Shown: positions 1 through 62,984 of the stretch, piece after piece
Numbering within the stretch: the first letter of the stretch is position 1
Layout of the letters: each line of letters opens with the position of its first letter
Assembly (NCBI GenBank): GCA_964016885.1
Contig: OZ024743.1
Coordinates: forward strand, 212,226,001 to 212,290,000
Direction of reading: 5' to 3'
DNA from: Eledone cirrhosa
Lineage: Eukaryota
DNA: 64,000 nucleotides
Position numbers and translations under genes: made by a program
The notes under the pieces: model-generated
The model's database searches: none
Seen by the model: only the letters and a program-made list of their open reading frames with translations
Told to the model about the DNA's origin: nothing

Positions 1-196
1 GAAGATCACACCACACACAGCCAATGAGTGTCTGCACATGTACCAGTAATTACAGATGGATCCCACCACGGGCGGCCGGCCCACAATCGAAAAGGTTACT
101 CCGCCTGCAAATCGTCATTTTCGGATTCGTTTTCTTCGAAGCACACCATTCGCCGGCGGACTTCAGCTGCCTCATTTAGCATGGGCAGTTTTTCTT
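1..196. repeat. Representative type A monomer (196 bp, most abundant)
   Basis: Diagnostic GATGGATCCC, CCCACAATCGAAAAGGTTAC and TTTTCGGATTCG, with a 33-bp tail CAGCTGCCTCATTTAGCATG(G/A)GCAGTTTTTCTT. Hand count gives 100/196 G+C and 12 CpG. Confidence 0.97.
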
Positions 197-593
197 GAAG
201 ATCACACCACACACAGCCAATGAGTGTCTGCACATGTACCAGTAATTAGAGATCGATCCGACCACGGGCGGCCGGCCCACGATCGAGAAAAAGGTAACTC
301 CGCCGGCAAATCGTCATTTTTGTGATCCGTTTTCTTCGAAGCACACCATTCGCCGCCGGACTTCAGCTGCCTCATTTAGCATGGGCAGTTTTTTTTGAAA
401 ATCACACCACACACAACCAATGTGTGTCTGCACATGTACCAGTAATTACAGATCGATCCGACCACGGGCGGCCGGCCCGCGATTGAAAAGGTAACTCCGC
501 CGGCAAATCGTCATTTTTGTGATTCGTTTTCTTCGAAGCACACCATTCGCCGCCGGACTTCAGCTGCCTCATTTAGCATGGGCAGTTTTTTTT
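197..593. repeat. Representative type B (197-396, 200 bp) and type C (397-593, 197 bp) monomers
   Basis: B has TTAGAGATCGATCCG and CCCACGATCGAGAAAAAGGTAAC. C has CCCGCGATTGAAAAGGTAAC and TTTTTGTGATTCG. Both end in a T8 tract. They usually occur as B-C immediately before D. Confidence 0.95.
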
Positions 594-3350
594 GAAAATC
601 ACACCACACACAACCAATGTGTGTCTGCACATGTACCAGTAATTACAGATCGATCCCACCACGAGTTCAATGTAAACAAACTTACGCTAAACTACTTTGT
701 TGACGTTTAACACGGTTTGGTTCCACAGCCACAACTATTGATTTTACGGAGATATCTTGCTGAAATTCACGCCACACATAGCCAATGAGTGTCTGCACAT
801 GTGTCAGTAATTACAGATCGATCCGACCACGGACGGCCGGCCCGCGATTGAAAAGGTAACTCCTCCGGCAAATCGTCATTTTTGGATTCGTTTTCTTCGA
901 AGCACACCATTCGCCGGCGGACTTTGTTGACGTTTAACACGGTTTGGTTCCACAGCCACAACTATTGATTTTAAGGAGATATCTTGCTGAAATTCACGCC
1001 ACACATAGCCAATGAGTGTCTGCACATGTACCAGTAATTACAGATGGATCCCACCACGGGCGGCCGGCCCACAATCGAAAAGGTTACTCCGCCTGCAAAT
1101 CGTCATTTTCGGATTCGTTTTCTTCGAAGCACACCATTCGCCGGCGGACTTCAGCTGCCTCATTTAGCATGAGCAGTTTTTCTTGAAGATCACACCACAC
1201 ACAGCCAATGAGTGTCTGCACATGTACCAGTAATTACAGATGGATCCCACCACGGGCGGCCGGCCCACAATCGAAAAGGTTACTCCGCCTGCAAATCGTC
1301 ATTTTCGGATTCGTTTTCTTCGAAGCACACCATTCGCCGGCGGACTTCAGCTGCCTCATTTAGCATGAGCAGTTTTTCTTGAAGATCACACCACACATAG
1401 CCAATGAGTGTCTGCACATGTACCAGTAATTACAGATGGATCCCACCACGGGCGGCCGGCCCACAATCGAAAAGGTTACTCCGCCTGCAAATCGTCATTT
1501 TCGGATTCGTTTTCTTCGAAGCACACCATTCGCCGGCGGACTTCAGCTGCCTCATTTAGCATGGGCAGTTTTTCTTGAAGATCACACCACACACAGCCAA
1601 TGAGTGTCTGCACATGTACCAGTAATTACAGATGGATCCCACCACGGGCGGCCGGCCCACAATCGAAAAGGTTACTCCGCCTGCAAATCGTCATTTTCGG
1701 ATTCGTTTTCTTCGAAGCACACCATTCGCCGGCGGACTTCAGCTGCCTCATTTAGCATGGGCAGTTTTTCTTGAAGATCACACCACACACAGCCAATGAG
1801 TGTCTGCACATGTACCAGTAATTAGAGATCGATCCGACCACGGGCGGCCGGCCCACGATCGAGAAAAAGGTAACTCCGCCGGCAAATCGTCATTTTTGTG
1901 ATCCGTTTTCTTCGAAGCACACCATTCGCCGCCGGACTTCAGCTGCCTCATTTAGCATGGGCAGTTTTTTTTGAAAATCACACCACACACAACCAATGTG
2001 TGTCTGCACATGTACCAGTAATTACAGATCGATCCGACCACGGGCGGCCGGCCCGCGATTGAAAAGGTAACTCCGCCGGCAAATCGTCATTTTTGTGATT
2101 CGTTTTCTTCGAAGCACACCATTCGCCGCCGGACTTCAGCTGCCTCATTTAGCATGAGCAGTTTTTCTTGAAGATCACACCACACACAGCCAATGAGTGT
2201 CTGCACATGTACCAGTAATTACAGATGGATCCCCCCACGGGCGGCCGGCCCACAATCGAAAAGGTTACTCCGCCTGCAAATCGTCATTTTCGGATTCGTT
2301 TTCTTCGAAGCACACCATTCGCCGGCGGACTTCAGCTGCCTCATTTAGCATGAGCAGTTTTTCTTGAAGATCACACCACACACAGCCAATGAATGTCTGC
2401 ACATGTACCAGTAATTACAGATGGATCCCACCACGGGCGGCCGGCCCACAATCGAAAAGGTTACTCCGCCTGCAAATCGTCATTTTCGGATTCGTTTTCT
2501 TCGAAGCACACCATTCGCCGCCGGACTTCAGCTGCCTCATTTAGCATGGGCAGTTTTTCTTGAAGATCACATCACACACAGCCAATGAGTGTCTGCACAT
2601 GTACCAGTAATTACAGATGGATCCCACCACGGGCGGCCGGCCCACAATCGAAAAGGTTACTCCGCCTGCAAATCGTCATTTTCGGATTCGTTTTCTTCGA
2701 AGCACACCATTCGCCGGCGGACTTCAGCTGCCTCATTTAGCATGAGCAGTTTTTCTTGAAGATCACACCACACACAGCCAATGAGTGTCTGCACATGTAC
2801 CAGTAATTACAGATGGATCCCACCACGGGCGGCCGGCCCACAATCGAAAAGGTTACTCCGCATGCAAATCGTCATTTTCGGATTCGTTTTCTTCGAAGCA
2901 CACCATTCGCCGGCGGACTTCAGCTGCCTCATTTAGCATGGGCAGTTTTTCTTGAAGATCACACCACACACAGTCAATGAGTGTCTGCACATGTACCAGT
3001 AATTAGAGATCGATCCGACCACGGGCGGCCGGCCCACGATCGAGAAAAAGGTAACTCCGCCGGCAAATCGTCATTTTTGTGATCCGTTTTCTTCGAAGCA
3101 CACCATTCGCCGCCGGACTTCAGCTGCCTCATTTAGCATGGGCAGTTTTTTTTGAAAATCACACCACACACAACCAATGTGTGTCTGCACATGTACCAGT
3201 AATTACAGATCGATCCGACCATGGGCGGCCGGCCCGCGATTGAAAAGGTAACTCCGCCGGCAAATCGTCATTTTTGTGATTCGTTTTCTTCGAAGCACAC
3301 CATTCGCCGCCGGACTTCAGCTGCCTCATTTAGCATGGGCAGTTTTTTTT

Positions 3351-3745
3351 GAAAATCACACCACACACAACCAATGTGTGTCTGCACATGTACCAGTAAT
3401 TACAGATCGATCCCACCACGAGTTCAATGTAAACAAACTTACGCTCAACGACTTTGTTGACGTTTAACACGGTTTGGTTCCACAGCCACAACTATTGATT
3501 TTACGGAGATATCTTGCTGAAATTCACGCCACACATAGCCAATGAGTGTCTGCACATGTACCAGTAATTACAGATCGATCCGACCACGGACGGCCGGCCC
3601 GCGATTGAAAAGGTAACTCCGCCGGCAAATCGTCATTTTTGGATTCGTTTTCTTCGAAGCACACCATTCGCCGGCGGACTTTGTTGACGTTTAACACGGT
3701 TTGGTTCCACAGCCACAACTATTGATTTTAAGGAGATATCTTGCT
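3351..3745. repeat. Representative type D (3351-3518, 168 bp) and type E (3519-3745, 227 bp) monomers
   Basis: D = 70-bp shared head + 29-bp unique AGTTCAATGTAAACAAACTTACGCTCAAC + GACTT + 64-bp alternative tail. E = 163-bp shared head/body + the same 64-bp tail (TGTTGACGTTTAACACGG...GATATCTTGCT). Confidence 0.95.
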
Positions 3746-6700
3746 GAAATTCACGCCACACATAGCCAATGAGTGTCTGCACATGTACCATTAATTACAG
3801 ATGGATCCCACCACGGGCGGCCGGCCCACAATCGAAACGGTTACTCCGCCTGCAAATCGTCATTTTCGGATTCGTTTTCTTCGAAGCACACCATTCGCCG
3901 GCGGACTTCAGCTGCCTCATTTAGCATGAGCAGTTTTTCTTGAAGATCACACCACACACAGCCAATGAGTGTCTGCACATGTACCAGTAATTACAGATGG
4001 ATCCCACCACGGGCGGCCGGCCCACAATCGAAAAGGTTACTCCGCCTGCAAATCGTCATTTTCGGATTCGTTTTCTTCGAAGCACACCATTCGCCGGCGG
4101 ACTTCAGCTGCCTCATTTAGCATGAGCAGTTTTTCTTGAAGATCACACCACACACAGCCAATGAGTGTCTGCACATGTACCAGTAATTACAGATGGATCC
4201 CACCACGGGCGTCCGGCCCACAATCGAAAAGGTTACTCCGCCTGCAAATCGTCATTTTCGGATTCGTTTTCTTCGAAGCACACCATTCGCCGGCGGACTT
4301 CAGCTGCCTCATTTAGCATGAGCAGTTTTTCTTGAAGATCACACCACACATAGCCAATGAGTGTCTGCACATGTACCAGTAATTAGAGATCGATCCGACC
4401 ACGGGCGGCCGGCCCGCGATTGAAAAGGTAACTCCGCCGGCAAATCGTCATTTTTGTGATTCGTTTTCTTCGAAGCACACCATTCGCCGCCGGACTTCAG
4501 CTGCCTCATTTAGCATGGGCAGTTTTTTTTGAAAATCACACCACACACAACCAATGTGTGTCTGCACATGTACCAGTAATTACAGATCGATCCCACCACG
4601 AGTTCAATGTAAACAAACTTACGCTCAACGACTTTGTTGACGTTTAACACGGTTTGGTTCCACAGCCACAACTATTGATTTTACGGAGATATCTTGCTGA
4701 AATTCACGCCACACATAGCCAATGAGAGTCTGCACATGTACCAGTAATTACAGATCGATCCGACCAGGGGCGGCCGGCCCGCGATTGAAAAGGTAACTCC
4801 GCCGGCAAATCGTCATTTTTGGATTCGTTTTCTTCGAAGCACACCATTCGCCGGCGGACTTTGTTGACGTTTAACACGGTTTGGTTCCACAGCCACAACT
4901 ATTGATTTTACGGAGATATCTTGCTGAAATTCACGCCACACATAGCCAATGAGTGTCTGCACATGTAGCAGTAATGACAGATCGATCCGACCACGGATGG
5001 CCGGCCCGCGATTGAAAAGGTAACTCCGCCGGCAAATCGTCATTTTTGGATTCGTTTTCTTCGAAGCACACCATTCGCCGGCGTACTTTGTTGACGTTTA
5101 ACACGGTTTGGTTCCACAGCCACAACTATTGATTTTAAGGAGATATCTTGCTGAAGTTCACGCCACTCATAGCCAATGAGTGTCTGCACATGTACCAGTA
5201 ATTACAGATGGATCCCACCACGGGCGGCCGGCCCACAATCGAAAAGGTTACTCCGCCTGCAAATCGTCATTTTCGGATTCGTTTTCTTCGAAGCACACCA
5301 TTCGCCGGCGGACTTCAGCTGCCTCATTTAGCATGAGCAGTTTTTCTTGAAGATCACACCACACACAGCCAATGAGTGTCTGCACATGTACCAGTAATTA
5401 CAGATGGATCCCACCACGGGCGGCCGGCCCACAATCGAAAAGGTTACTCCGCATGCAAATCGTCATTTTCGGATTCGTTTTCTTCGAAGCACACCATTCG
5501 CCGGCGGACTTCAGCTGCCTCATTTAGCATGGGCAGTTTTTCTTGAAGATCACACCACACACAGCCAATGAGTGTCTGCACATGTACCAGTAATTAGAGA
5601 TCGATCCGACCACGGGCGGCCGGCCCACGATCGAGAAAAAGGTAACTCCGCCGGCAAATCGTCATTTTTGTGATCCGTTTTCTTCGAAGCACACCATTCG
5701 CCGCCGGACTTCAGCTGCCTCATTTAGCATGGGCAGTTTTTTTTGAAAATCACACCACACACAACCAATGTGTGTCTGCACATGTACCAGTAATTACAGA
5801 TCGATCCGACCACGGGCGGCCGGCCCGCGATTGAAAAGGTAACTCCGCCGGCAAATCGTCATTTTTGTGATTCGTTTTCTTCGAAGCACACCATTCGCCG
5901 CCGGACTTCAGCTGCCTCATTTAGCATGGGCAGTTTTTTTTGAAAATCACACCACACACAACCAATGTGTGTCTGCACATGTACCAGTAATTACAGATCG
6001 ATCCCACCACGAGTTCAATGTAAACAAACTTACGCTAAACTACTTTGTTGACGTTTAACACGGTTTGGTTCCACAGCCACAACTATTGATTTTACGGAGA
6101 TATCTTGCTGAAATTCACGCCACACATAGCCAATGAGTGTCTGCACATGTGTCAGTAATTACAGATCGATCCGACCACGGACGGCCGGCCCGCGATTGAA
6201 AAGGTAACTCCGCCGGCAAATCGTCATTTTTGGATTCGTTTTCTTCGAAGCACACCATTCGCCGGCGGACTTTGTTGACGTTTAACACGGTTTGGTTCCA
6301 CAGCCACAACTATTGATTTTAAGGAGATATCTTGCTGAAATTCACGCCACACATAGCCAATGAGTGTCTGCACATGTACCAGTAATTACAGATGGATCCC
6401 ACCACGGGCGGCCGGCCCACAATCGAAAAGGTTACTCCGCCTGCAAATCGTCATTTTCGGATTCGTTTTCTTCGAAGCACACCATTCGCCGGCGGACTTC
6501 AGCTGCCTCATTTAGCATGAGCAGTTTTTCTTGAAGATCACACCACACACAGCCAATGAGTGTCTGCACATGTACCAGTAATTACAGATGGATCCCACCA
6601 CGGGCGGCCGGCCCACAATCGAAAAGGTTACTCCGCCTGCAAATCGTCATTTTCGGATTCGTTTTCTTCGAAGCACACCATTCGCCGGCGGACTTCAGCT

Positions 6701-38586: not shown

Positions 38587-39766
38587 GAAAATCACACCAC
38601 ACACAACCAATGTGTGTCTGCACATGTACCAGTAATTACAGATCGATCCCACCACGAGTTCAATGTAAACAAACTTACGCTCAACGACTTTGTTGACGTT
38701 TAACACGGTTTGGTTCCACAGCCACAACTATTGATTTTACGGAGATATCTTGCTGAAATTCACGCCACACATAGCCAATGAGTGTCTGCACATGTACCAG
38801 TAATTACAGATCGATCCGACCACGGACGGCCGGCCCGCGATTGAAAAGGTAACTCCGCCGGCAAATCGTCATTTTTGGATTCGTTTTCTTCGAAGCACAC
38901 CATTCGCCGGCGGACTTTGTTGACGTTTAACACGGTTTGGTTCCACAGCCACAACTATTGATTTTAAGGAGATATCTTGCTGAAATTCACGCCACACATA
39001 GCCAATGAGTGTCTGCACATGTACCATTAATTACAGATGGATCCCACCACGGGCGGCCGGCCCACAATCGAAACGGTTACTCCGCCTGCAAATCGTCATT
39101 TTCGGATTCGTTTTCTTCGAAGCACACCATTCGCCGGCGGACTTCAGCTGCCTCATTTAGCATGAGCAGTTTTTCTTGAAGATCACACCACACACAGCCA
39201 ATGAGTGTCTGCACATGTACCAGTAATTACAGATGGATCCCACCACGGGCGGCCGGCCCACAATCGAAAAGGTTACTCCGCCTGCAAATCGTCATTTTCG
39301 GATTCGTTTTCTTCGAAGCACACCATTCGCCGGCGGACTTCAGCTGCCTCATTTAGCATGAGCAGTTTTTCTTGAAGATCACACCACACACAGCCAATGA
39401 GTGTCTGCACATGTACCAGTAATTACAGATGGATCCCACCACGGGCGTCCGGCCCACAATCGAAAAGGTTACTCCGCCTGCAAATCGTCATTTTCGGATT
39501 CGTTTTCTTCGAAGCACACCATTCGCCGGCGGACTTCAGCTGCCTCATTTAGCATGAGCAGTTTTTCTTGAAGATCACACCACACATAGCCAATGAGTGT
39601 CTGCACATGTACCAGTAATTAGAGATCGATCCGACCACGGGCGGCCGGCCCGCGATTGAAAAGGTAACTCCGCCGGCAAATCGTCATTTTTGTGATTCGT
39701 TTTCTTCGAAGCACACCATTCGCCGCCGGACTTCAGCTGCCTCATTTAGCATGGGCAGTTTTTTTT

Positions 39767-42700
39767 GAAAATCACACCACACACAACCAATGTGTGTCTG
39801 CACATGTACCAGTAATTACAGATCGATCCCACCACGAGTTCAATGTAAACAAACTTACGCTCAACGACTTTGTTGACGTTTAACACGGTTTGGTTCCACA
39901 GCCACAACTATTGATTTTACGGAGATATCTTGCTGAAATTCACGCCACACATAGCCAATGAGAGTCTGCACATGTACCAGTAATTACAGATCGATCCGAC
40001 CAGGGGCGGCCGGCCCGCGATTGAAAAGGTAACTCCGCCGGCAAATCGTCATTTTTGGATTCGTTTTCTTCGAAGCACACCATTCGCCGGCGGACTTTGT
40101 TGACGTTTAACACGGTTTGGTTCCACAGCCACAACTATTGATTTTACGGAGATATCTTGCTGAAATTCACGCCACACATAGCCAATGAGTGTCTGCACAT
40201 GTAGCAGTAATGACAGATCGATCCGACCACGGATGGCCGGCCCGCGATTGAAAAGGTAACTCCGCCGGCAAATCGTCATTTTTGGATTCGTTTTCTTCGA
40301 AGCACACCATTCGCCGGCGTACTTTGTTGACGTTTAACACGGTTTGGTTCCACAGCCACAACTATTGATTTTAAGGAGATATCTTGCTGAAGTTCACGCC
40401 ACTCATAGCCAATGAGTGTCTGCACATGTACCAGTAATTACAGATGGATCCCACCACGGGCGGCCGGCCCACAATCGAAAAGGTTACTCCGCCTGCAAAT
40501 CGTCATTTTCGGATTCGTTTTCTTCGAAGCACACCATTCGCCGGCGGACTTCAGCTGCCTCATTTAGCATGAGCAGTTTTTCTTGAAGATCACACCACAC
40601 ACAGCCAATGAGTGTCTGCACATGTACCAGTAATTACAGATGGATCCCACCACGGGCGGCCGGCCCACAATCGAAAAGGTTACTCCGCATGCAAATCGTC
40701 ATTTTCGGATTCGTTTTCTTCGAAGCACACCATTCGCCGGCGGACTTCAGCTGCCTCATTTAGCATGGGCAGTTTTTCTTGAAGATCACACCACACACAG
40801 CCAATGAGTGTCTGCACATGTACCAGTAATTAGAGATCGATCCGACCACGGGCGGCCGGCCCACGATCGAGAAAAAGGTAACTCCGCCGGCAAATCGTCA
40901 TTTTTGTGATCCGTTTTCTTCGAAGCACACCATTCGCCGCCGGACTTCAGCTGCCTCATTTAGCATGGGCAGTTTTTTTTGAAAATCACACCACACACAA
41001 CCAATGTGTGTCTGCACATGTACCAGTAATTACAGATCGATCCGACCACGGGCGGCCGGCCCGCGATTGAAAAGGTAACTCCGCCGGCAAATCGTCATTT
41101 TTGTGATTCGTTTTCTTCGAAGCACACCATTCGCCGCCGGACTTCAGCTGCCTCATTTAGCATGGGCAGTTTTTTTTGAAAATCACACCACACACAACCA
41201 ATGTGTGTCTGCACATGTACCAGTAATTACAGATCGATCCCACCACGAGTTCAATGTAAACAAACTTACGCTCAACGACTTTGTTGACGTTTAACACGGT
41301 TTGGTTCCACAGCCACAACTATTGATTTTACGGAGATATCTTGCTGAAATTCACGCCACACATAGCCAATGAGAGTCTGCACATGTACCAGTAATTACAG
41401 ATCGATCCGACCAGGGGCGGCCGGCCCGCGATTGAAAAGGTAACTCCGCCGGCAAATCGTCATTTTTGGATTCGTTTTCTTCGAAGCACACCATTCGCCG
41501 GCGGACTTTGTTGACGTTTAACACGGTTTGGTTCCACAGCCACAACTATTGATTTTACGGAGATATCTTGCTGAAATTCACGCCACACATAGCCAATGAG
41601 TGTCTGCACATGTAGCAGTAATGACAGATCGATCCGACCACGGATGGCCGGCCCGCGATTGAAAAGGTAACTCCGCCGGCAAATCGTCATTTTTGGATTC
41701 GTTTTCTTCGAAGCACACCATTCGCCGGCGTACTTTGTTGACGTTTAACACGGTTTGGTTCCACAGCCACAACTATTGATTTTAAGGAGATATCTTGCTG
41801 AAGTTCACGCCACTCATAGCCAATGAGTGTCTGCACATGTACCAGTAATTACAGATGGATCCCACCACGGGCGGCCGGCCCACAATCGAAAAGGTTACTC
41901 CGCCTGCAAATCGTCATTTTCGGATTCGTTTTCTTCGAAGCACACCATTCGCCGGCGGACTTCAGCTGCCTCATTTAGCATGAGCAGTTTTTCTTGAAGA
42001 TCACACCACACACAGCCAATGAGTGTCTGCACATGTACCAGTAATTACAGATGGATCCCACCACGGGCGGCCGGCCCACAATCGAAAAGGTTACTCCGCA
42101 TGCAAATCGTCATTTTCGGATTCGTTTTCTTCGAAGCACACCATTCGCCGGCGGACTTCAGCTGCCTCATTTAGCATGGGCAGTTTTTCTTGAAGATCAC
42201 ACCACACACAGCCAATGAGTGTCTGCACATGTACCAGTAATTAGAGATCGATCCGACCACGGGCGGCCGGCCCACGATCGAGAAAAAGGTAACTCCGCCG
42301 GCAAATCGTCATTTTTGTGATCCGTTTTCTTCGAAGCACACCATTCGCCGCCGGACTTCAGCTGCCTCATTTAGCATGGGCAGTTTTTTTTGAAAATCAC
42401 ACCACACACAACCAATGTGTGTCTGCACATGTACCAGTAATTACAGATCGATCCGACCACGGGCGGCCGGCCCGCGATTGAAAAGGTAACTCCGCCGGCA
42501 AATCGTCATTTTTGTGATTCGTTTTCTTCGAAGCACACCATTCGCCGCCGGACTTCAGCTGCCTCATTTAGCATGGGCAGTTTTTTTTGAAAATCACACC
42601 ACACACAACCATTGTGTGTCTGCACATGTACCAGTAATTACAGATGGATCCCACCACGGGCGGCCGGCCCACAATCGAAAAGGTTACTCCGCCTGCAAAT

Positions 42701-45700
42701 CGTCATTTTCGGATTCGTTTTCTTCGAAGCACACCATTCGCCGGCGGACTTCAGCTGCCTCATTTAGCATGAGCAGTTTTTCTTGAAGATCACACCACAC
42801 ACAGCCAATGAGTGTCTGCACATGTACCAGTAATTACAGATGGATCCCACCACGGGCGTCCGGCCCACAATCGAAAAGGTTACTCCGCCTGCAAATCGTC
42901 ATTTTCGGATTCGTTTTCTTCGAAGCACACCATTCGCCGGCGGACTTCAGCTGCCTCATTTAGCATGAGCAGTTTTTCTTGAAGATCACACCACACATAG
43001 CCAATGAGTGTCTGCACATGTACCAGTAATTAGAGATCGATCCGACCACGGGCGGCCGGCCCGCGATTGAAAAGGTAACTCCGCCGGCAAATCGTCATTT
43101 TTGTGATTCGTTTTCTTCGAAGCACACCATTCGCCGCCGGACTTCAGCTGCCTCATTTAGCATGGGCAGTTTTTTTTGAAAATCACACCACACACAACCA
43201 ATGTGTGTCTGCACATGTACCAGTAATTACAGATCGATCCCACCACGAGTTCAATGTAAACAAACTTACGCTCAACGACTTTGTTGACGTTTAACACGGT
43301 TTGGTTCCACAGCCACAACTATTGATTTTACGGAGATATCTTGCTGAAATTCACGCCACACATAGCCAATGAGAGTCTGCACATGTACCAGTAATTACAG
43401 ATCGATCCGACCAGGGGCGGCCGGCCCGCGATTGAAAAGGTAACTCCGCCGGCAAATCGTCATTTTTGGATTCGTTTTCTTCGAAGCACACCATTCGCCG
43501 GCGGACTTTGTTGACGTTTAACACGGTTTGGTTCCACAGCCACAACTATTGATTTTACGGAGATATCTTGCTGAAATTCACGCCACACATAGCCAATGAG
43601 TGTCTGCACATGTAGCAGTAATGACAGATCGATCCGACCACGGATGGCCGGCCCGCGATTGAAAAGGTAACTCCGCCGGCAAATCGTCATTTTTGGATTC
43701 GTTTTCTTCGAAGCACACCATTCGCCGGCGTACTTTGTTGACGTTTAACACGGTTTGGTTCCACAGCCACAACTATTGATTTTAAGGAGATATCTTGCTG
43801 AAGTTCACGCCACTCATAGCCAATGAGTGTCTGCACATGTACCAGTAATTACAGATGGATCCCACCACGGGCGGCCGGCCCACAATCGAAAAGGTTACTC
43901 CGCCTGCAAATCGTCATTTTCGGATTCGTTTTCTTCGAAGCACACCATTCGCCGGCGGACTTCAGCTGCCTCATTTAGCATGAGCAGTTTTTCTTGAAGA
44001 TCACACCACACACAGCCAATGAGTGTCTGCACATGTACCAGTAATTACAGATGGATCCCACCACGGGCGGCCGGCCCACAATCGAAAAGGTTACTCCGCA
44101 TGCAAATCGTCATTTTCGGATTCGTTTTCTTCGAAGCACACCATTCGCCGGCGGACTTCAGCTGCCTCATTTAGCATGGGCAGTTTTTCTTGAAGATCAC
44201 ACCACACACAGCCAATGAGTGTCTGCACATGTACCAGTAATTAGAGATCGATCCGACCACGGGCGGCCGGCCCACGATCGAGAAAAAGGTAACTCCGCCG
44301 GCAAATCGTCATTTTTGTGATCCGTTTTCTTCGAAGCACACCATTCGCCGCCGGACTTCAGCTGCCTCATTTAGCATGGGCAGTTTTTTTTGAAAATCAC
44401 ACCACACACAACCAATGTGTGTCTGCACATGTACCAGTAATTACAGATCGATCCGACCACGGGCGGCCGGCCCGCGATTGAAAAGGTAACTCCGCCGGCA
44501 AATCGTCATTTTTGTGATTCGTTTTCTTCGAAGCACACCATTCGCCGCCGGACTTCAGCTGCCTCATTTAGCATGGGCAGTTTTTTTTGAAAATCACACC
44601 ACACACAACCAATGTGTGTCTGCACATGTACCAGTAATTACAGATCGATCCCACCACGAGTTCAATGTAAACAAACTTACGCTCAACGACTTTGTTGACG
44701 TTTAACACGGTTTGGTTCCACAGCCACAACTATTGATTTTACGGAGATATCTTGCTGAAATTCACGCCACACATAGCCAATGAGAGTCTGCACATGTACC
44801 AGTAATTACAGATCGATCCGACCAGGGGCGGCCGGCCCGCGATTGAAAAGGTAACTCCGCCGGCAAATCGTCATTTTTGGATTCGTTTTCTTCGAAGCAC
44901 ACCATTCGCCGGCGGACTTTGTTGACGTTTAACACGGTTTGGTTCCACAGCCACAACTATTGATTTTACGGAGATATCTTGCTGAAATTCACGCCACACA
45001 TAGCCAATGAGTGTCTGCACATGTAGCAGTAATGACAGATCGATCCGACCACGGATGGCCGGCCCGCGATTGAAAAGGTAACTCCGCCGGCAAATCGTCA
45101 TTTTTGGATTCGTTTTCTTCGAAGCACACCATTCGCCGGCGTACTTTGTTGACGTTTAACACGGTTTGGTTCCACAGCCACAACTATTGATTTTAAGGAG
45201 ATATCTTGCTGAAGTTCACGCCACTCATAGCCAATGAGTGTCTGCACATGTACCAGTAATTACAGATGGATCCCACCACGGGCGGCCGGCCCACAATCGA
45301 AAAGGTTACTCCGCCTGCAAATCGTCATTTTCGGATTCGTTTTCTTCGAAGCACACCATTCGCCGGCGGACTTCAGCTGCCTCATTTAGCATGAGCAGTT
45401 TTTCTTGAAGATCACACCACACACAGCCAATGAGTGTCTGCACATGTACCAGTAATTACAGATGGATCCCACCACGGGCGGCCGGCCCACAATCGAAAAG
45501 GTTACTCCGCATGCAAATCGTCATTTTCGGATTCGTTTTCTTCGAAGCACACCATTCGCCGGCGGACTTCAGCTGCCTCATTTAGCATGGGCAGTTTTTC
45601 TTGAAGATCACACCACACACAGCCAATGAGTGTCTGCACATGTACCAGTAATTAGAGATCGATCCGACCACGGGCGGCCGGCCCACGATCGAGAAAAAGG

Positions 45701-48700
45701 TAACTCCGCCGGCAAATCGTCATTTTTGTGATCCGTTTTCTTCGAAGCACACCATTCGCCGCCGGACTTCAGCTGCCTCATTTAGCATGGGCAGTTTTTT
45801 TTGAAAATCACACCACACACAACCAATGTGTGTCTGCACATGTACCAGTAATTACAGATCGATCCGACCACGGGCGGCCGGCCCGCGATTGAAAAGGTAA
45901 CTCCGCCGGCAAATCGTCATTTTTGTGATTCGTTTTCTTCGAAGCACACCATTCGCCGCCGGACTTCAGCTGCCTCATTTAGCATGGGCAGTTTTTTTTG
46001 AAAATCACACCACACACAACCATTGTGTGTCTGCACATGTACCAGTAATTACAGATGGATCCCACCACGGGCGGCCGGCCCACAATCGAAAAGGTTACTC
46101 CGCCTGCAAATCGTCATTTTCGGATTCGTTTTCTTCGAAGCACACCATTCGCCGGCGGACTTCAGCTGCCTCATTTAGCATGGGCAGTTTTTCTTGAAGA
46201 TCACACCACACACAGCCAATGAGTGTCTGCACATGTACCACTAACTACAGATGGATCCCACCACGGGCGGCCGGCCCACAATCGAAAAGGTTACTCCGCC
46301 TGCAAATCGTCATTTTCGGATTCGTTTTCTTCGAAGCACACCATTCGCCGGCGGACTTCAGCTGCCTCATTTAGCATGAGCAGTTTTTCTTGAAGATCAC
46401 ACCACACACAGCCAATGAGTGTCTGCAAATGTACCAGTAATTACAGATGGATCCCACCACGGGCGGCCGGCCCACAATCGAAAAGGTTACTCCGTCTGCA
46501 AATCGTCATTTTCGGATTCGTTTTCTTCGAAGCACACCATTCGCCGGCGGACTTCAGCTGCCTCATTTAGCATGAGCAGTTTTTCTTGAAGATCACACCA
46601 CACACAGCCAATGAGTGTCTGCACATGTACCAGTAATTACAGATGGATCCCACCACGGGCGGCCGGCCCACAATCGAAAAGGTTACTCCGCCTGCAAATC
46701 GTCATTTTCGGATTCGTTTTCTTCGAAGCACACCATTCGCCGGCGGACTTCAGCTGCCTCATTTAGCATGAGCAGTTTTTCTTGAAGATCACACCACACA
46801 CAGCCAATGAGTGTCTGCACATGTACCAGTAATTAGAGATCGATCCGACCACGGGCGGCCGGCCCACGATCGAGAAAAAGGTAACTCCGCCGGCAAATCG
46901 TCATTTTTGTGATCCGTTTTCTTCGAAGCACACCATTCGCCGCCGGACTTCAGCTGCCTCATTTAGCATGGGCAGTTTTTTTTGAAAATCACACCACACA
47001 CAACCAATGTGTGTCTGCACATGTACCAGTAATTACAGATCGATCCGACCACGGGCGGCCGGCCCGCGATTGAAAAGGTAACTCCGCCGGCAAATCGTCA
47101 TTTTTGCGATTCGTTTTCTTCGAAGCACACCATTCGCCGCCGGACTTCAGCTGCCTCATTTAGCATGGGCAGTTCTTTTTGAAAATCACACCACACACAA
47201 CCAATGTGTGTCTGCACATGTACCAGTAATTACAGATCGATCCCACCACGAGTTCAATGTAAACAAACTTACGCTCAACGACTTTGTTGACGTTTAACAC
47301 GGTTTGGTTCCACAGCCACAACTATTGATGTTACGGAGATATCTTGCTGAAATTCACGCCACACATAGCCAATGAGTGTCTGCACATGTACCAGTAATTA
47401 CAGATCGATCCGACCACGGACGGCCGGCCCGCGATTGAAAAGGTAACTCCGCCGGCAAATCGTCATTTTTGGATTCGTTTTCTTCGAAGCACACCATTCG
47501 CCGGCGGACTTTGTTGACGTTTAACACGGTTTGGTTCCACAGCCACAACTATTGATTTTAAGGAGATATCTTGCTGAAATTCACGCCACACATAGCCAAT
47601 GAGTGTCTGCACATGTACCATTAATTACAGATGGATCCCACCACGAGCGGCCGGCCCACAATCGAAACGGTTACTCCGCCTGCAAATCGTCATTTTCGGA
47701 TTCGTTTTCTTCGAAGCACACCATTCGCCGGCGGACTTCAGCTGCCTCATTTAGCATGAGCAGTTTTTCTTGAAGATCACACCACACACAGCCAATGAGT
47801 GTCTGCACATGTACCAGTAATTACAGATGGATCCCACCACGGGCGGCCGGCCCACAATCGAAAAGGTTACTCCGCCTGCAAATCGTCATTTTCGGATTCG
47901 TTTTCTTCGAAGCACACCATTCGCCGGCGGACTTCAGCTGCCTCATTTAGCATGAGCAGTTTTTCTTGAAGATCACACCACAGACAGCCAATGAGTGTCT
48001 GCACATGTACCAGTAATTACAGATGGATCCCACCACGGGCGGCCGGCCCACAATCGAAAAGGTTACTCCGCATGCAAATCGTCATTTTCGGATTCGTTTT
48101 CTTCGAAGCACACCATTCGCCGGCGGACTTCAGCTGCCTCATTTAGCATGGGCAGTTTTTCTTGAAGATCACACCACACACAGCCAATGAGTGTCTGCAC
48201 ATGTACCAGTAATTAAAGATCGATCCGACCACGGGCGGCCGGCCCACGATCGAGAAAAAGGTAACTCCGCCGGCAAATCGTCATTTTTGTGATTCGTTTT
48301 CTTCGAAGCACACCATTCGCCGCCGGACTTCAGCTGCCTCATTTAGCATGGGCAGTTTTTTTTGAAAATCACACCACACACAACCAATGTGTGTCTGCAC
48401 ATGTACCAGTAATTACAGATCGATCCCACCACGGGCGGCCGGCCCGCGATTGAAAAGGTAACTCCGCCGGCAAATCGTCATTTTTGTGATTCGTTTTCTT
48501 CGAAGCACACCATTCGCCGCCGGACTTCAGCTGCCTCATTTAGCATGGGCAGTTTTTTTTGAAAATCACACCACACACAACCAATGTGTGTCTGCACATG
48601 TACCAGTAATTACAGATCGATCCCACCACGAGTTCAATGTAAACAAACTTACGCTCAACGACTTTGTTGACGTTTAACACGGTTTGGTTCCACAGCCACA

Positions 48701-54700: not shown

Positions 54701-56149
54701 GACTTCAGCTGCCTCATTTAGCATGGGCAGTTTTTTTTGAAAATCACACCACACACAACCAATGTGTGTCTGCACATGTACCAGTAATTACAGATCGATC
54801 CCACCACGAGTTCAATGTAAACAAACTTACGCTCAACGACTTTGTTGACGTTTAACACGGTTTGGTTCCACAGCCACAACTATTGATTTTACGGAGATAT
54901 CTTGCTGAAATTCACGCCACACATAGCCAATGAGAGTCTGCACATGTACCAGTAATTACAGATCGATCCGACCAGGGGCGGCCGGCCCGCGATTGAAAAG
55001 GTAACTCCGCCGGCAAATCGTCATTTTTGGATTCGTTTTCTTCGAAGCACACCATTCGCCGGCGGACTTTGTTGACGTTTAACACGGTTTGGTTCCACAG
55101 CCACAACTATTGATTTTACGGAGATATCTTGCTGAAATTCACGCCACACATAGCCAATGAGTGTCTGCACATGTAGCAGTAATGACAGATCGATCCGACC
55201 ACGGATGGCCGGCCCGCGATTGAAAAGGTAACTCCGCCGGCAAATCGTCATTTTTGGATTCGTTTTCTTCGAAGCACACCATTCGCCGGCGTACTTTGTT
55301 GACGTTTAACACGGTTTGGTTCCACAGCCACAACTATTGATTTTAAGGAGATATCTTGCTGAAGTTCACGCCACTCATAGCCAATGAGTGTCTGCACATG
55401 TACCAGTAATTACAGATGGATCCCACCACGGGCGGCCGGCCCACAATCGAAAAGGTTACTCCGCCTGCAAATCGTCATTTTCGGATTCGTTTTCTTCGAA
55501 GCACACCATTCGCCGGCGGACTTCAGCTGCCTCATTTAGCATGAGCAGTTTTTCTTGAAGATCACACCACACACAGCCAATGAGTGTCTGCACATGTACC
55601 AGTAATTACAGATGGATCCCACCACGGGCGGCCGGCCCACAATCGAAAAGGTTACTCCGCCTGCAAATCGTCATTTTCGGATTCGTTTTCTTCGAAGCAC
55701 ACCATTCGCCGGCGGACTTCAGCTGCCTCATTTAGCATGGGCAGTTTTTTTTGAAGATCACACCACACACACCCAATGAGTGTCTGCACATGTACCAGTA
55801 ATTAGAGATCGATCCGACCACGGGCGGCCGGCCCACGATCGAGAAAAAGGTAACTCCGCCGGCAAATCGTCATTTTTGTGATCCGTTTTCTTCGAAGCAC
55901 ACCATTCGCCGCCGGACTTCAGCTGCCTCATTTAGCATGGGCAGTTTTTTTTGAAAATCACACCACACACAACCAATGTGTGTCTGCACATGTACCAGTA
56001 ATTACAGATCGATCCGACCACGGGCGGCCGGCCCGCGATTGAAAAGGTAACTCCGCCGGCAAATCGTCATTTTTGTGATTCGTTTTCTTCGAAGCACACC
56101 ATTCGCCGCCGGACTTCAGCTGCCTCATTTAGCATGGGCAGTTTTTTTT
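39767..56149. repeat. Zone dominated by a 1411-bp 7-mer HOR (D-E-E-A-A-B-C)
   Basis: 1411-bp spacings: 39692-41103-42514, 43103-44514-45925, 48486-49897, 50658-52069 and 53253-54664-56075 (1184+227=1411). E1 is marked by GAGAGTCT/ACCAGGGG and E2 by GTAGCAGTAATGAC/GGCGTACT. Confidence 0.95.
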
Positions 56150-59100
56150 GAAAATCACACCACACACAACCAATGTGTGTCTGCACATGTACCAGTAATT
56201 ACAGATCGATCCCACCACGAGTTCAATGTAAACAAACTTACGCTCAACGACTTTGTTGACGTTTAACACGGTTTGGTTCCACAGCCACAACTATTGATTT
56301 TACGGAGATATCTTGCTGAAATTCACGCCACACATAGCCAATGAGTGTCTGCACATCTACCAGTAATTACAGATGGATCCCACCACGGGCGGCCGGCCCA
56401 CAATCGAAACGGTTACTCCGCCTGCAAATCGTCATTTTCGGATTCGTTTTCTTCGAAGCACACCATTCGCCGGCGGACTTCAGCTGCCTCATTTAGCATG
56501 AGCAGTTTTTCTTGAAGATCACACCACACACAGCCAATGAGTGTCTGCACATGTACCAGTAATTACAGATGGATCCCACCACGGGCGGCCGGCCCACAAT
56601 CGAAAAGGTTACTCCGCCTGCAAATCGTCATTTTCGGATTCGTTTTCTTCGAAGCACACCATTCGCCGGCGGACTTCAGCTGCCTCATTTAGCATGGACA
56701 GTTTTTCTTGAAGATCACACCACACACACCCAATGAGTGTCTGCACATGTACCAGTAATTAGAGATCGATCCGACCACGGGCGGCCGGCCCACGATCGAG
56801 AAAAAGGTAACTCCGACGGCAAATCGTCATTTTTGTGATCCGTTTTCTTCGAAGCACACCATTCGCCGCCGGACTTCAGCTGCCTCATTTAGCATGGGCA
56901 GTTTTTTTTGAAAATCACACCACACACAACCAGTGTGTGTCTGCACATGTACCAGTAATTACAGATCGATCCGACCACGGGCGGCCGGCCCGCGATTGAA
57001 AAGGTAACTCCGCCGGCAAATCGTCATTTTTGTGATTCGTTTTCTTCGAAGCACACCATTCGCCGCCGGACTTCAGCTGCCTCATTTAGCATGGGCAGTT
57101 TTTTTTGAAAATCACACCACACACAACCAATGTGTGTCTGCACATGTACCAGTAATTACAGATCGATCCCACCACGAGTTCAATGTAAACAAACTTACGC
57201 TCAACGACTTTGTTGACGTTTAACACGGTTTGGTTCCACAGCCACAACTATTGATTTTACGGAGATATCTTGCTGAAATTCACGCCACACATAGCCAATG
57301 AGTGTCTGCACATGTAGCAGTAATTACAGATCGATCCGACCACGGATGGCCGGCCCGCGATTGAAAAGGTAACTCTGCCGGCAAATCGTCATTTTTGGAT
57401 TCGTTTTCTTCGAAGCACACCATTCGCCGGCGGACTTTGTTGACGTTTAACACGGTTTGGTTCCACAGCCACAACTATTGATTTTAAGGAGATATCTTGC
57501 TGAAATTCACGCCACACATAGCCAATGAGTGTCTGCACATGTACTAGTAATTACAGATGGATCCCACCACGGGCGGCCGGCCCACAATCGAAAAGGTTAC
57601 TCCGCCTGCAAATCGTCATTTTCGGATTCGTTTTCTTCGAAGCACACCATTCGCCGGCGGACTTCAGCTGCCTCATTTAGCATGGGCAGTTTTTCTTGAA
57701 GATCACACCACACACAGCCAATGAGTGTCTGCACATGTACCAGTAATTAGAGATCGATCCGACCACGGGCGGCCGGCCCACGATCGAGAAAAAGGTAACT
57801 CCGCCGGCAAATCGTCATTTTTGTGATCCGTTTTCTTCGAAGCACACCATTCGCCGCCGGACTTCAGCTGCCTCATTTAGCATAGGCAGTTTTTTTTGAA
57901 AATCACACCACACACAACCAATGTGTGTCTGCACATGTACCAGTAATTACAGATCGATCCCACCACGAGTTCAATGTAAACAAACTTACGCTCAACGACT
58001 TTGTTGACGTTTAACACGGTTTGGTTCCACAGCCACAACTATTGATTTTACGGAGATATCTTGCTGAAATTCACGCCACACATAGCCAATGAGTGTCTGC
58101 ACATCTACCAGTAATTACAGATGGATCCCACCACGGGCGGCCGGCCCACAATCGAAACGGTTACTCCGCCTGCAAATCGTCATTTTCGGATTCGTTTTCT
58201 TCGAAGCACACCATTCGCCGGCGGACTTCAGCTGCCTCATTTAGCATGAGCAGTTTTTCTTGAAGATCACACCACACACAGCCAATGAGTGTCTGCACAT
58301 GTACCAGTAATTAGAGATCGATCCGACCACGGGCGGCCGGCCCACGATCGAGAAAAAGGTAACTCCGCCGGCAAATCGTCATTTTTGTGATCCGTTTTCT
58401 TCGAAGCACACCATTCGCCGCCGGACTTCAGCTGCCTCATTTAGCATAGGCAGTTTTTTTTGAAAATCACACCACACACAACCAATGTGTGTCTGCACAT
58501 GTACCAGTAATTACAGATCGATCCCACCACGAGTTCAATGTAAACAAACTTACGCTCAACGACTTTGTTGACGTTTAACACGGTTTGGTTCCACAGCCAC
58601 AACTATTGATTTTACGGAGATATCTTGCTGAAATTCACGCCACACATAGCCAATGAGTGTCTGCACATCTACCAGTAATTACAGATGGATCCCACCACGG
58701 GCGGCCGGCCCACAATCGAAACGGTTACTCCGCCTGCAAATCGTCATTTTCGGATTCGTTTTCTTCGAAGCACACCATTCGCCGGCGGACTTCAGCTGCC
58801 TCATTTAGCATGAGCAGTTTTTCTTGAAGATCACACCACACACAGCCAATGAGTGTCTGCACATGTACCAGTAATTACAGATGGATCCCACCACGGGCGG
58901 CCGGCCCACAATCGAAAAGGTTACTCCGCCTGCAAATCGTCATTTTCGGATTCGTTTTCTTCGAAGCACACCATTCGCCGGCGGACTTCAGCTGCCTCAT
59001 TTAGCATGGACAGTTTTTCTTGAAGATCACACCACACACAGCCAATGAGTGTCTGCACATGTACCAGTAATTACAGATCGATCCCACCACGAGTTCAATG

Positions 59101-61175
59101 TAAACAAACTTACGCTCAACGACTTTGTTGACGTTTAACACGGTTTGGTTCCACAGCCACAACTATTGATTTTAAGGGGATATCTTGCTGAAATTCACGC
59201 CACACATAGCCAATGAGTGTCTGCACATGTACCAGTAATTGCAGATCGATCCGACCACGGACGGCCGGCCCGCGATTGAAAAGGTAACTCCGTCGGCAAA
59301 TCGTCATTTTTGGATTCGTTTTCTTCGAAGCACACCATTCGCCGGCCGACTTTGTTGACGTTTAACACGGTTTGGTTCCACAGCCACAACTATTGATTTT
59401 AAGGGGATATCTTGCTGAAATTCACGCCACACATAGCCAATGAGTGTCTGCACATGTACCAGTAATTACAGATGGATCCCACCACGGGCGGCCGGCCCAC
59501 AATCGAAAAGGTTACTCCGCCTGCAAATCGTCATTTTCGGATTCGTTTTCTTCGAAGCACACCATTCGCCGGCGGACTTCAGCTGCCTCATTTAGCATGG
59601 GCAGTTTTTCTTGAAGATCACACCACACACAGCCAATGAGTGTCTGCACATGTACCAGTAATTAGAGATCGATCCGACCACGGGCGGCCGGCCCACGATC
59701 GAGAAAAAGGTAACTCCGCCGGCAAATCGTCATTTTCGGATTCGTTTTCTTCGAAGCACACCATTCGCCGGCGGACTTCAGCTGCCTCATTTAGCATGAG
59801 CAGTTTTTCTTGAAGATCACACCACACACAGCCAATGAGTGTCTGCACATGTACCAGTAATTACAGATGGATCCCACCACGGGCGGCCGGCCCACAATCG
59901 AAAAGGTTACTCCGCCTGCAAATCGTCATTTTCGGATTCGTTTTCTTCGAAGCACACCATTCGCCGGCGGACTTCAGCTGCCTCATTTAGCATGGGCAGT
60001 TTTTCTTGAAGATCACACCACACACACCCAATGAGTGTCTGCACATGTACCAGTAATTAGAGATCGATCCGACCACGGGCGGCCGGCCCACGATCGAGAA
60101 AAAGGTAACTCCGCCGGCAAATCGTCATTTTTGTGATCCGTTTTCTTCGAAGCACACCATTCGCCGCCGGACTTCAGCTGCCTCATTTAGCATGGGCAGT
60201 TTTTTTTGAAAATCACACCACACACAACCAATGTGTGTCTGCACATGTACCAGTAATTACAGATCGATCCGACCACGGGCGGCCGGCCCGCGATTGAAAA
60301 GGTAACTCCGCCGGCAAATCGTCATTTTTGTGATTCGTTTTCTTCGAAGCACACCATTCGCCGCCGGACTTCAGCTGCCTCATTTAGCATGGGCAGTTTT
60401 TCTTGAAGATCACACCACACACAGCCAATGAGTGTCTGCACATGTACCAGTAATTACAGATGGATCCCACCACGGGCGGCCGGCCCACAATCGAAAAGGT
60501 TACTCCGCCTGCAAATCGTCATTTTCGGATTCGTTTTCTTCGAAGCACACCATTCGCCGGCGGACTTCAGCTGCCTCATTTAGCATGGGCAGTTTTTCTT
60601 GAAGATCACACCACACACAGCCAATGAGTGTCTGCACATGTACCAGTAATTAGAGATCGATCCGACCACGGGCGGCCGGCCCACGATCGAGAAAAAGGTA
60701 ACTCCGCCGGCAAATCGTCATTTTTGTGATCCGTTTTCTTCGAAGCACACCATTCGCCGCCGGACTTCAGCTGCCTCATTTAGCATGGGCAGTTTTTTTT
60801 GAAAATCACACCACACACAACCAATGTGTGTCTGCACATGTACCAGTAATTACAGATCGATCCCACCACGAGTTCAATGTAAACAAACTTACGCTCAACG
60901 ACTTTGTTGACGTTTAACACGGTTTGGTTCCACAGCCACAACTATTGATTTTAAGGGGATATCTTGCTGAAATTCACGCCACACATAGCCAATGAGTGTC
61001 TGCACATGTAGCAGTAATTACAGATCGATCCGACCACGGATGGCCGGCCCGCGATTGAAAAGGTAACTCCGCCGGCAAATCGTCATTTTTGGATTCGTTT
61101 TCTTCGAAGCACACCATTCGCCGGCGGACTTTGTTGACGTTTAACACGGTTTGGTTCCACAGCCACAACTATTGA
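56150..61175. repeat. Array edge zone: short irregular HORs (957 bp, 564 bp and others) with edge-specific variants
   Basis: 56075-57032 = 957 (D-A-A-B-C). CATAGGCAG at 57881 and 58445 = 564 (D-A-B). TTAAGGGGAT is seen only at ~59.17, 59.40 and 60.95 kb. Confidence 0.9.
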
Positions 61176-62282: not shown

Positions 62283-62285
62283 TAT

Positions 62286-62522: not shown

Positions 62523-62595
62523 CACACTCTGCTCTGTAAGAGCATAGAGTGCTCAACTGGCATACCGCCTATGGAAGCATCATAGCTACCATTAA

Positions 62596-62601
<6 letters not shown>

Positions 62602-62972: not shown

Positions 62973-62984
62973 ATTCGAAAATTA

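What the first reader, a model, noticed from the sequence alone, without database searches (positions are those of the whole stretch)
1..61175. Candidate centromeric/pericentromeric satellite with a variable HOR grammar, D-E(0-2)-A(n)-B-C
Seen: over 61 kb of same-strand, near-identical repeat with five monomer types in a constrained order. E follows only D or E, B-C nearly always precedes D, and mainly the A and E copy numbers vary. I saw no insertion or inversion, although the adjacent flank is dense in repeats. Known: HOR-organised, nucleosome-length satellites form centromeres in primates (alpha satellite) and Arabidopsis (CEN178). Inference: this may be the centromeric or pericentromeric satellite of an octopus-like genome. 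I do not recognise the monomer from any described family.
Basis: partly seen in the sequence, partly recalled or inferred. Interest (0 to 1): 0.8.

Follow-up and report, generated by a model that had tools for sequence, protein, structure and literature searches.

The report
Octopod higher-order satellite on giant chromosomes
This is the end of a 650-kb array of an apparently undescribed, ordered ~200-base repeat that forms several separate blocks in the middle of a likely octopus's giant chromosomes, some next to long telomere-like tracts; it is likely heterochromatin and a candidate, but unproven, centromere.

Summary
The repeat is real: 309 whole monomers of five types (168–227 bp), all on one strand, uninterrupted, in strongly non-random order. 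The 'grammar' is looser than claimed. It fits 22 of 41 units here and 24 of 90 elsewhere in the array, and reflects a few multi-monomer haplotypes copied and recombined; hybrid monomers mark the exchanges.

The window ends a 0.65-Mb array on contig C4 (379 Mb) of an octopod-type genome. The family totals roughly 6 Mb (0.2%). It lies in separate blocks on C1, C2 (three) and C4 (three), with fragments or compound forms on C3, C18 and C28, and on unplaced scaffolds. Sampling found none on the other 21 chromosome-scale contigs. On C2 and C3 it abuts interstitial telomeric tracts (at least 1.6 Mb on C2). It is absent from the rDNA spacer.

Best reading: a heterochromatic satellite block, pericentromeric-type or intercalary, not the shared centromere repeat. 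This array may still be C4's active centromere (about 0.27). No cephalopod centromeric satellite turned up in seven literature searches. Verdict: new member of a known kind, and a ready CENP-A/FISH target.

The parts
1..61175 (+). Right-hand 61 kb of a 0.65-Mb satellite array (G000:C4:211,634,155-212,287,175); 309 complete monomers (28-60,995) plus partial ends; G+C about 49% against 37% in the flank
   Evidence: extent
28..223 (+). Example A monomer (196 bp): shared head, middle module, tail 1
224..423 (+). Example B monomer (200 bp), 91% identical to A and 96.5% to C
424..620 (+). Example C monomer (197 bp), 92% identical to A
621..788 (+). Example D monomer (168 bp): shared ~43-bp head, ~29-bp D-specific piece, tail 2; about 61% identical to A/B/C
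789..1015 (+). Example E monomer (227 bp): C/A-type head and middle joined to the D tail at a shared 5-base word; equivalently one more copy of a 227-bp unit
   Evidence: pairwise alignments; 227-bp period with 2.0 or 3.0 copies
39205..46026 (+). Perfect tandem duplication of 17 monomers (39,205-42,615 = 42,616-46,026)
3378..5968 (+). 13 monomers identical to 38,614-41,204, 35 kb away
61172..61175 (+). Array end: 4 bases shared between a truncated E monomer and the start of a 472-bp tandem repeat (microhomology-type junction, inferred)
   Evidence: sequence
61172..62282 (+). Flanking 472-bp tandem repeat, 2.4 copies, 99% matches; not part of the satellite

Best explanation
The window is the right-hand 61 kb of a 0.65-Mb single-strand satellite array, one of several separate blocks of the same G+C-rich 168-227-bp family on the giant chromosomes of a likely octopod; it is likely a heterochromatic block rather than the centromere repeat shared by all chromosomes, and its ordered pattern likely arises from duplication and unequal exchange of a few multi-monomer haplotypes. 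SHOWN: the monomers are modular (a shared head, then middle or D-specific piece, then tail 1 or tail 2); E joins a C/A-type front to the D tail; the same allele strings recur; hybrid monomers and multi-kb perfect duplications exist; the family forms several separate arrays per chromosome, some beside long interstitial telomeric tracts and other satellites. INFERRED: E arose once as a 227-bp tandem duplication (or deletion) at a 5-base microhomology, which by construction places it after D or E. Out-of-register homologous exchange then added and removed monomers, and whole units were amplified, giving local 'dialects'. The block would be packaged as constitutive heterochromatin, pericentromeric-type or intercalary, without needing to hold the kinetochore.
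For: Few origins, not a rule: all 12 E-E pairs have the same first-E haplotype (T2A, C42G, A45G, A186C) and all 12 second Es carry C16G and C46T. Hybrids: 7 of 8 C monomers not preceded by B carry B's G26, one A after D carries an E-type head, and three As before B carry a B-type head. Recent block copying: perfect 3.4-kb tandem and 2.6-kb distant duplications. The pattern drifts along the array (24 of 90 strict units) and differs between arrays. Several blocks on C4: 211.63-212.29, about 233.53-234.4 (pure E, about 0.9 Mb) and 247.41-247.58 Mb. Ten samples between them held no family DNA and had a long tandem array in 2 of 10, against 1 of 10 in arm controls. C2 has blocks at 169.46, 209.7-209.8 and 243.63-245.04 Mb. 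Rare-variant probes gave 63 fully listed hits: C1 19, C2 15, C4 5, C28 2, unplaced 22, and none on C3 or C5-C27. A compound-form probe hit only C18 among C1-C27. Neighbours: 99- and 29-bp satellites over at least 0.4 Mb left of this array; a telomeric-repeat tract from 242.0 to 243.64 Mb interleaved with the C2 array; family fragments inside a telomeric-repeat tract at 49% of C3. Large interstitial telomeric blocks are described as mainly (peri)centromeric, in vertebrates (PMC6410037, passages). No dyad excess, no fold-energy excess and no 10-bp WW periodicity against shuffles.
Against: Nothing here measures chromatin or locates C4's constriction. The array has features typical of active satellite centromeres: 196-bp unit, higher-order units, about 99% homogeneity, no insertion in 16 of 16 10-kb samples, mid-chromosome position and an assembly gap at its left end. 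About a third of the family is on unplaced scaffolds that could belong to the small chromosomes. The 41 placed rare-variant hits are only 16 locus-by-variant events, so small arrays on C5-C27 could be missed. No telomeric tract was found at any sampled edge of the C4 or C1 arrays, so the link to telomeric tracts holds only for C2 and C3. The right flank passes at once into ordinary DNA, so heterochromatin is itself inferred.
Confidence: 0.56

Rival explanations
1. This array is the active, CENP-A-bound centromere of C4, and the family is the centromeric satellite of the giant chromosomes; the other C4 blocks are displaced or relic copies.
For: It lies at 56% of C4, inside a satellite complex of at least 1.06 Mb with a gap. 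It is homogeneous, uninterrupted and recently turned over. A/B/C-like monomers are 94-97% alike within C4 arrays but about 90% alike between C4 and C1/C2, as expected of chromosome-specific centromeric variants. C1 and C2 each have one dominant complex, at 63% and 59%. Octopod C-bands are mostly centromeric (PMC6160780, passages).
Against: C4 has a larger and equally homogeneous pure-E array 21 Mb away. C3 shows only fragments. No dyad or periodicity signal. Satellite arrays can be uncoupled from centromere function (equids, PMC13477059, abstract).
Confidence: 0.27
2. The family, probably its pure-E form, is the centromere repeat of all chromosomes, and the arrays of the small chromosomes were collapsed or left unplaced by the assembly.
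For: 22 of 63 rare-variant hits are on unplaced scaffolds; three of the five examined are pure E at 98-99% identity. E occurs on C1, C2 and C4. A compound form is on C18 and C28.
Against: 0 of 16 placed locus-by-variant events fall on C5-C27, where anchored array edges would be expected. Placed blocks (about 4 Mb) plus the unplaced share (about 35%) already account for the roughly 6-Mb estimate. The other two unplaced scaffolds match known arrays (C1280 the C4 type, C1458 the C1 type).
Confidence: 0.1
3. The satellite is an amplified subrepeat of the ribosomal DNA intergenic spacer.
For: A diverged compound form recurs every 30-45 kb on C28, just downstream of 18S and 28S fragments. Spacer-derived satellites are known in plants (PMC2679016, search listing only).
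Against: Three stretches spanning whole rDNA units (C4:352.07, C12:25.07, C25:23.02 Mb) gave no blastn hit to any monomer at word size 7, E <= 0.1; the C12 unit has full-length 18S, 5.8S and 28S. The C28 unit holds only rRNA fragments.
Confidence: 0.03
4. The array or its order is an assembly artefact.
For: A perfect 3.4-kb tandem duplication and a gap at the array's left end; short reads cannot confirm long-range order.
Against: 77 distinct monomer sequences with consistent haplotypes and hybrids. The monomers are held at very high summed depth in run X1, which may be the source sample, and in raw reads of two further samples with the same species label (X21, X22).
Confidence: 0.02

Closest known systems
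Primate alpha satellite higher-order repeats (recalled, no call)
   Same: Nucleosome-scale monomers, multi-monomer units copied as blocks, hybrid monomers at unit variants, chromosome-group-specific variants, megabase arrays.
   Different: No sequence relation is claimed. G+C-rich (49%) with no CpG decay. Monomers are unequal (168-227 bp) and modular. A, B and C are 91-96% alike, and unit length is highly variable. No exact CENP-B box core. Not found on most chromosomes; several blocks per chromosome; CENP-A binding untested.
Arabidopsis CEN178 (recalled, no call)
   Same: Local, variable higher-order duplications instead of one fixed unit.
   Different: CEN178 marks one centromere on every chromosome and is heavily methylated; neither is seen here.
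Heterochromatic interstitial telomeric sequences (het-ITS) with flanking satellites (PMC6410037, passages)
   Same: Megabase degenerate telomeric tracts inside chromosomes, interleaved with satellite DNA (C2, C3).
   Different: Described mainly in vertebrates and plants. In my samples each tract read in one orientation, with no head-to-head junction. None was found beside the window's own array.
SSUsat of the bivalve Spisula subtruncata (PMC5537241, passages)
   Same: Molluscan, G+C-rich satellite in large blocks on a subset of chromosomes, intercalary rather than centromeric.
   Different: 315-bp monomer, at least 1.3% of its genome, methylated above the genome mean. The passages seen mention no higher-order structure. 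Sequence not compared.
Equid non-centromeric satellite loci (PMC13477059, abstract and outline)
   Same: Precedent for large satellite arrays without centromere function in a reshuffled karyotype.
   Different: Established there by CENP-A mapping; untested here.

Membership tests
Satellite DNA with higher-order repeats | Long head-to-tail array of monomers | tested here: met
   309 contiguous monomers in the window; 16 of 16 further 10-kb samples fully satellite
Satellite DNA with higher-order repeats | Multi-monomer units more alike than neighbouring monomers | tested here: met
   Within-type identity 97.7-99.7% against 61-96.5% between types; recurring allele strings
Satellite DNA with higher-order repeats | One dominant fixed unit across the array | tested here: not met
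   Commonest unit DEEAABC is 9 of 41; composition shifts along the array
Genome-wide centromeric satellite | One large array on each chromosome | tested here: not met
   Three blocks each on C2 and C4; 0 of 41 placed rare-variant hits on C3 or C5-C27. This is sampling, not a full map, and about a third of the family is unplaced
Genome-wide centromeric satellite | CENP-A enrichment or location at the primary constriction | not testable with these tools
   No chromatin or cytogenetic data
Genome-wide centromeric satellite | Most abundant tandem repeat of the genome | not tested
   About 6 Mb estimated; the telomeric, 16-bp, 25-bp and other satellites were not counted
Genome-wide centromeric satellite | Dyad symmetry or 10-bp WW periodicity (commonly reported, recalled; not strictly defining) | tested here: not met
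   0 of 5 monomer types exceed shuffles (dyad p 0.75-1.0; WW p 0.15-0.46; fold z -1.5 to +0.7)
Alpha-satellite-like (CENP-B box) | CENP-B box core (motif recalled) | tested here: not met
   0 exact sites; 41 one-mismatch sites in the array, and among the five reference monomers only B has one
rDNA spacer-derived satellite | Homology to the spacer of rDNA units | tested here: not met
   No hit in 3 of 3 rDNA stretches
Fusion-site satellite (het-ITS complex) | Adjacent interstitial telomeric tract | tested here: inconclusive
   Met for the C2 and C3 blocks; not found at sampled edges of the window's array, the other C4 arrays or C1
Fusion-site satellite (het-ITS complex) | Synteny break between ancestral chromosomes at the block | not testable with these tools
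   No related genome is held for G000

The most novel reading that the evidence does not exclude
In an octopod with a two-class karyotype (four chromosomes of 379-443 Mb, 23 of 22-136 Mb), this young satellite has taken over the centromeres of the giant, fusion-derived chromosomes only. Megabase telomeric tracts mark the fusion points, and the extra C2 and C4 arrays are inactivated or displaced centromeres. It would be the first cephalopod centromere sequence and a case of chromosome-class-specific centromere DNA.
Probability: 0.17. Interest if true: 0.72.

Novelty: new member of a known kind. Interest (0 to 1): 0.43.

Why it matters
I found no description of cephalopod centromeric or satellite DNA in seven searches of the held library. 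A recent cuttlefish genome paper says that centromeric or telomeric labelling could help settle disputed cephalopod karyotypes (PMC13218726, passages). This family gives allele-specific probes that distinguish three arrays on one chromosome, so 'which block holds CENP-A, and do the giant chromosomes use different centromere DNA from the small ones?' becomes directly testable. If none binds CENP-A, it is an ordinary, though well-resolved, heterochromatic satellite. It would still show clearly how a one-off duplication and unequal exchange create an apparent grammar.

Tried and rejected
rDNA spacer origin: suggested by the 30-45-kb periodicity on C28, rejected.

A functional 'grammar' rule: rejected; it follows from haplotype descent and breaks elsewhere. 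My first idea that D-E-E and D-A are reciprocal products of free E/A slippage was mostly wrong. E-E is one haplotype pair, and only 1 of 8 As after D has an E-type head.

One broad heterochromatic zone across C4:212-247 Mb: not supported by 10 zone samples against 10 control samples (small sample).

CpG-methylation footprint: none. Transitions occurred at 5 of 136 CpG against 24 of 341 other C/G sites in the window (p 0.21), and at 22 of 136 against 48 of 342 in 1,104 monomers (p 0.57).

Structured RNA: no Rfam match in the satellite part of 59,000-64,000; the miRNA matches are below their gathering scores and lie on a flanking palindrome. No RNA holder was listed, so expression is open.

Presence in other organisms' runs: the three laid (X4, X5, X19) had depth up to about 160 against 10^5-10^6 in X1. 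I read this as trace carry-over, not as shared satellite.

The probes (127 and 218 hits) and the lists were cut before reaching C5, so they were left out of the distribution count.

The first 1.5 kb of 27 contigs (24 of the 27 chromosome-scale ones) held no family DNA; this is a weak test. Earlier scan notes: none. Dfam and Repbase were not available.
Full report
OBSERVATION. A 14-base anchor cuts the window into 309 complete monomers between 28 and 60,995, plus a truncated last one ending at 61,175. No anchor lies on the minus strand and every spacing is a monomer length. The five classes are A 196 bp (137), B 200 (44), C 197 (42), D 168 (42) and E 227 (44). Order is highly non-random (1.11 bits against at most 0.099 in 2,000 shuffles). 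E follows D or E in 44 of 44 cases, and B-C is followed by D in 30 of 34. The full pattern D-E(0-2)-A(n)-B-C fits only 22 of 41 units. The array ends on four bases shared with a 472-bp tandem repeat.

ANATOMY. A, B and C are 91-96.5% alike. D shares about 43 bases of head with them, then has its own ~29-base piece and a different tail. E is the first ~137 bases of a C/A-type monomer joined to D's tail at a shared 5-base word. D-E(n) is therefore one to three copies of a 227-bp unit, which is what TRF reports. The fourth module combination (D piece with the A/B/C tail) was seen in 0 of 1,341 monomers. That E arose by one duplication or deletion at that word is inferred.

WHERE THE ORDER COMES FROM. 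Coding each monomer by allele shows a small library of recurring units. All 12 E-E pairs begin with one E haplotype and end with Es sharing C16G and C46T. Seven of 8 Cs that lack a preceding B carry B's G26, so they are B/C hybrids. One A after D has an E-type head, and three As before B have a B-type head. A 3.4-kb block is perfectly duplicated in tandem, and a 2.6-kb block recurs 35 kb away. In 16 further 10-kb samples the array is unbroken and on one strand. There the strict pattern fits 24 of 90 units, E follows A, B or C in 7 of 92 cases, and the left third is A-poor. I infer out-of-register homologous exchange plus block amplification: the grammar is history, not a rule.

GENOME. The window is G000:C4:212,226,001-212,290,000 in a 3.0-Gb assembly. 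There are 27 chromosome-scale contigs: 443, 416, 379 and 379 Mb, then 136 down to 22 Mb. Haemocyanin genes show seven units in a row. One unit scores 830 bits against PDB 1JS8, 720-724 against 4YD9 and 6R83, and about 500 or less against the others. That 1JS8 is octopus, 4YD9 and 6R83 are squid, and seven units is the octopod state is recalled. Octopuses have about 30 haploid chromosomes (PMC13218726, passages), so the four giants may be fusions; this is untested.

EXTENT AND ABUNDANCE. The array starts at a 200-N gap at C4:211,634,154 and spans 0.65 Mb. To its left lie 29-bp and 99-bp satellites over at least 0.4 Mb; to its right is ordinary DNA. A conserved 21-mer has 23,125 exact matches. 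It occurred 1,210 times against 1,545 anchors in my non-random samples, which gives roughly 29,000 monomers, about 6 Mb or 0.2% of the assembly. Summed depth in run X1 is 10^5-10^6 against 11-21 on unique flank; this is an order of magnitude only. Raw reads of two further samples with the same species label hold the repeat.

DISTRIBUTION. Blocks were found at C1:279.70-280.10+; C2:169.46 (small, pure E), 209.7-209.8 (fragments in a 16-bp satellite) and 243.63-245.04+; and C4:211.63-212.29, about 233.53-234.4 (pure E, both orientations) and 247.41-247.58 (with a strand switch). C3:184.75 has fragments, and C18:6.73-6.85 and C28:124.69-126.02+ have a diverged compound form. On C1 the first exact match is at 279.70 Mb, so the repeat is not dispersed. 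Three rare-variant probes with complete lists gave 63 hits: C1 19, C2 15, C4 5, C28 2 and unplaced 22. The placed hits are 16 locus-by-variant events, none on C3 or C5-C27. Two further probes were cut before C5 and were dropped. The placed blocks sum to about 4 Mb, and the unplaced share fills the rest. This is sampling, not a map. Between the C4 blocks, 10 samples looked like 10 arm controls, so the blocks are separate, and at most one can be the centromere of a monocentric chromosome. A/B/C-like monomers are 94-97% alike within C4 and about 90% alike against C1/C2, whereas E is 96-99% alike everywhere.

TELOMERIC NEIGHBOURS. On C2 a degenerate telomeric tract fills all or nearly all of each sample from 242.0 to 243.63 Mb and interleaves with the satellite; with 13- and 25-bp satellites the complex spans at least 3.7 Mb. 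On C3, family fragments sit inside such a tract at 49% of the length. Large interstitial telomeric blocks are described as mainly (peri)centromeric and often viewed as rearrangement scars (PMC6410037, passages; vertebrate data). None was found at the sampled edges of the C4 or C1 arrays.

NEGATIVE TESTS. No homology to three rDNA stretches. No Rfam family in the satellite. No dyad, folding or 10-bp WW signal and no exact CENP-B box core. CpG observed/expected is 1.14, with no excess of CpG transitions.

INTERPRETATION. Best (0.56): a heterochromatic satellite block, pericentromeric-type or intercalary, that is not the shared centromere repeat. Rivals: active centromere of C4 (0.27), shared centromere repeat hidden by assembly (0.10), rDNA-spacer origin (0.03), artefact (0.02). 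Octopod C-bands are mostly centromeric but some are interstitial (PMC6160780, passages). A G+C-rich intercalary satellite on a subset of chromosomes is known in a bivalve (PMC5537241, passages), and equids show satellites uncoupled from centromeres (PMC13477059, abstract). Molluscs have CENP-A (PMC12210499, passages), so the test is feasible. It works like a higher-order satellite and passes those membership tests. It fails the one-array-per-chromosome test of a genome-wide centromeric satellite, and CENP-A binding is untested.

NOVELTY. Searches listed no paper on cephalopod satellite or centromere DNA. The library lacks most subscription papers, no supplements were read, and Dfam and Repbase were not available, so a prior description is not excluded. 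Verdict: new member of a known kind, interest 0.43.

Noticed in passing
G000:C28:124.69-126.02+ Mb (L081-L092, L040, L099-L100): A tandem macro-unit of about 37-40 kb, about 99% identical between copies. It holds an rDNA-like remnant (18S 5' end, a 317-bp satellite that by eye is built of 18S pieces, 28S 3' end), a histone 3' stem-loop match, a 16-bp minisatellite, an inverted compound form of this satellite (1,584/1,780-bp units) and a 957-aa open frame that looks like an endonuclease-reverse transcriptase by eye (not searched).
   Followed up: partly
G000:C2:242.0-243.64 Mb (L065, L116, L117, L136-L140, L158, L159): Degenerate interstitial telomeric tract of at least 1.6 Mb by sampling, in one orientation, interleaved with the satellite; a strong candidate for C2's centromeric region or a fusion site.
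   Followed up: partly
G000:C3:184.60-185.25 Mb (L050, L070-L073, L143, L161): Telomeric-repeat tract with its own higher-order structure and embedded satellite fragments, followed by at least 0.45 Mb of a telomere-like 16-bp satellite, at the midpoint of C3.
   Followed up: partly
G000:C4:233.53-234.4 Mb (L051, L074-L076, L121, L130, L134, L135): Pure 227-bp E array of about 0.9 Mb with at least two orientation switches; larger than the window's array.
   Followed up: partly
L015:2400-2480 (G000:C4:247.4864 Mb): Strand switch inside the C4:247.4 array, with different monomer patterns on either side.
   Followed up: no
G000 contigs C1-C28: Two-class karyotype: four chromosomes of 379-443 Mb and 23 of 22-136 Mb; 5 contigs begin with terminal telomeric repeats.
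   Followed up: no
G000:C4:352.07, C12:25.07, C25:23.02 Mb (L103-L113): rDNA units at three loci with periods of about 40, 22.5 and 19.6 kb. The C12 unit has very long rRNA genes (18S about 2.9 kb, 28S about 6.3 kb), and the C4 spacer carries A+T-rich inserted DNA.
   Followed up: partly
window 62286-62522: 115-bp-arm inverted repeat, 97% complementary, high summed read depth; foldback or MITE-like.
   Followed up: no
window 62782-63161: Tandemly duplicated piece of a very high-copy interspersed repeat (summed depth up to 10^7); it resembles octopus SINEs (recalled, not tested).
   Followed up: no
G000:C1:279.2 (L146), C2:244.32 and 245.7 (L053, L160), C4:247.40 (L014): The same 25-bp satellite flanks family arrays on three chromosomes, which suggests that whole satellite complexes moved between chromosomes.
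   Followed up: no
runs X4, X5, X19: Trace copies of the satellite, including the C28-type form, in runs labelled as other organisms and in a wastewater metagenome; read as carry-over.
   Followed up: partly
G000:C1:173.74-173.91, C26:21.93-22.02, C27:0.06 Mb: Haemocyanin gene clusters, including an inverted pair on C26.
   Followed up: no
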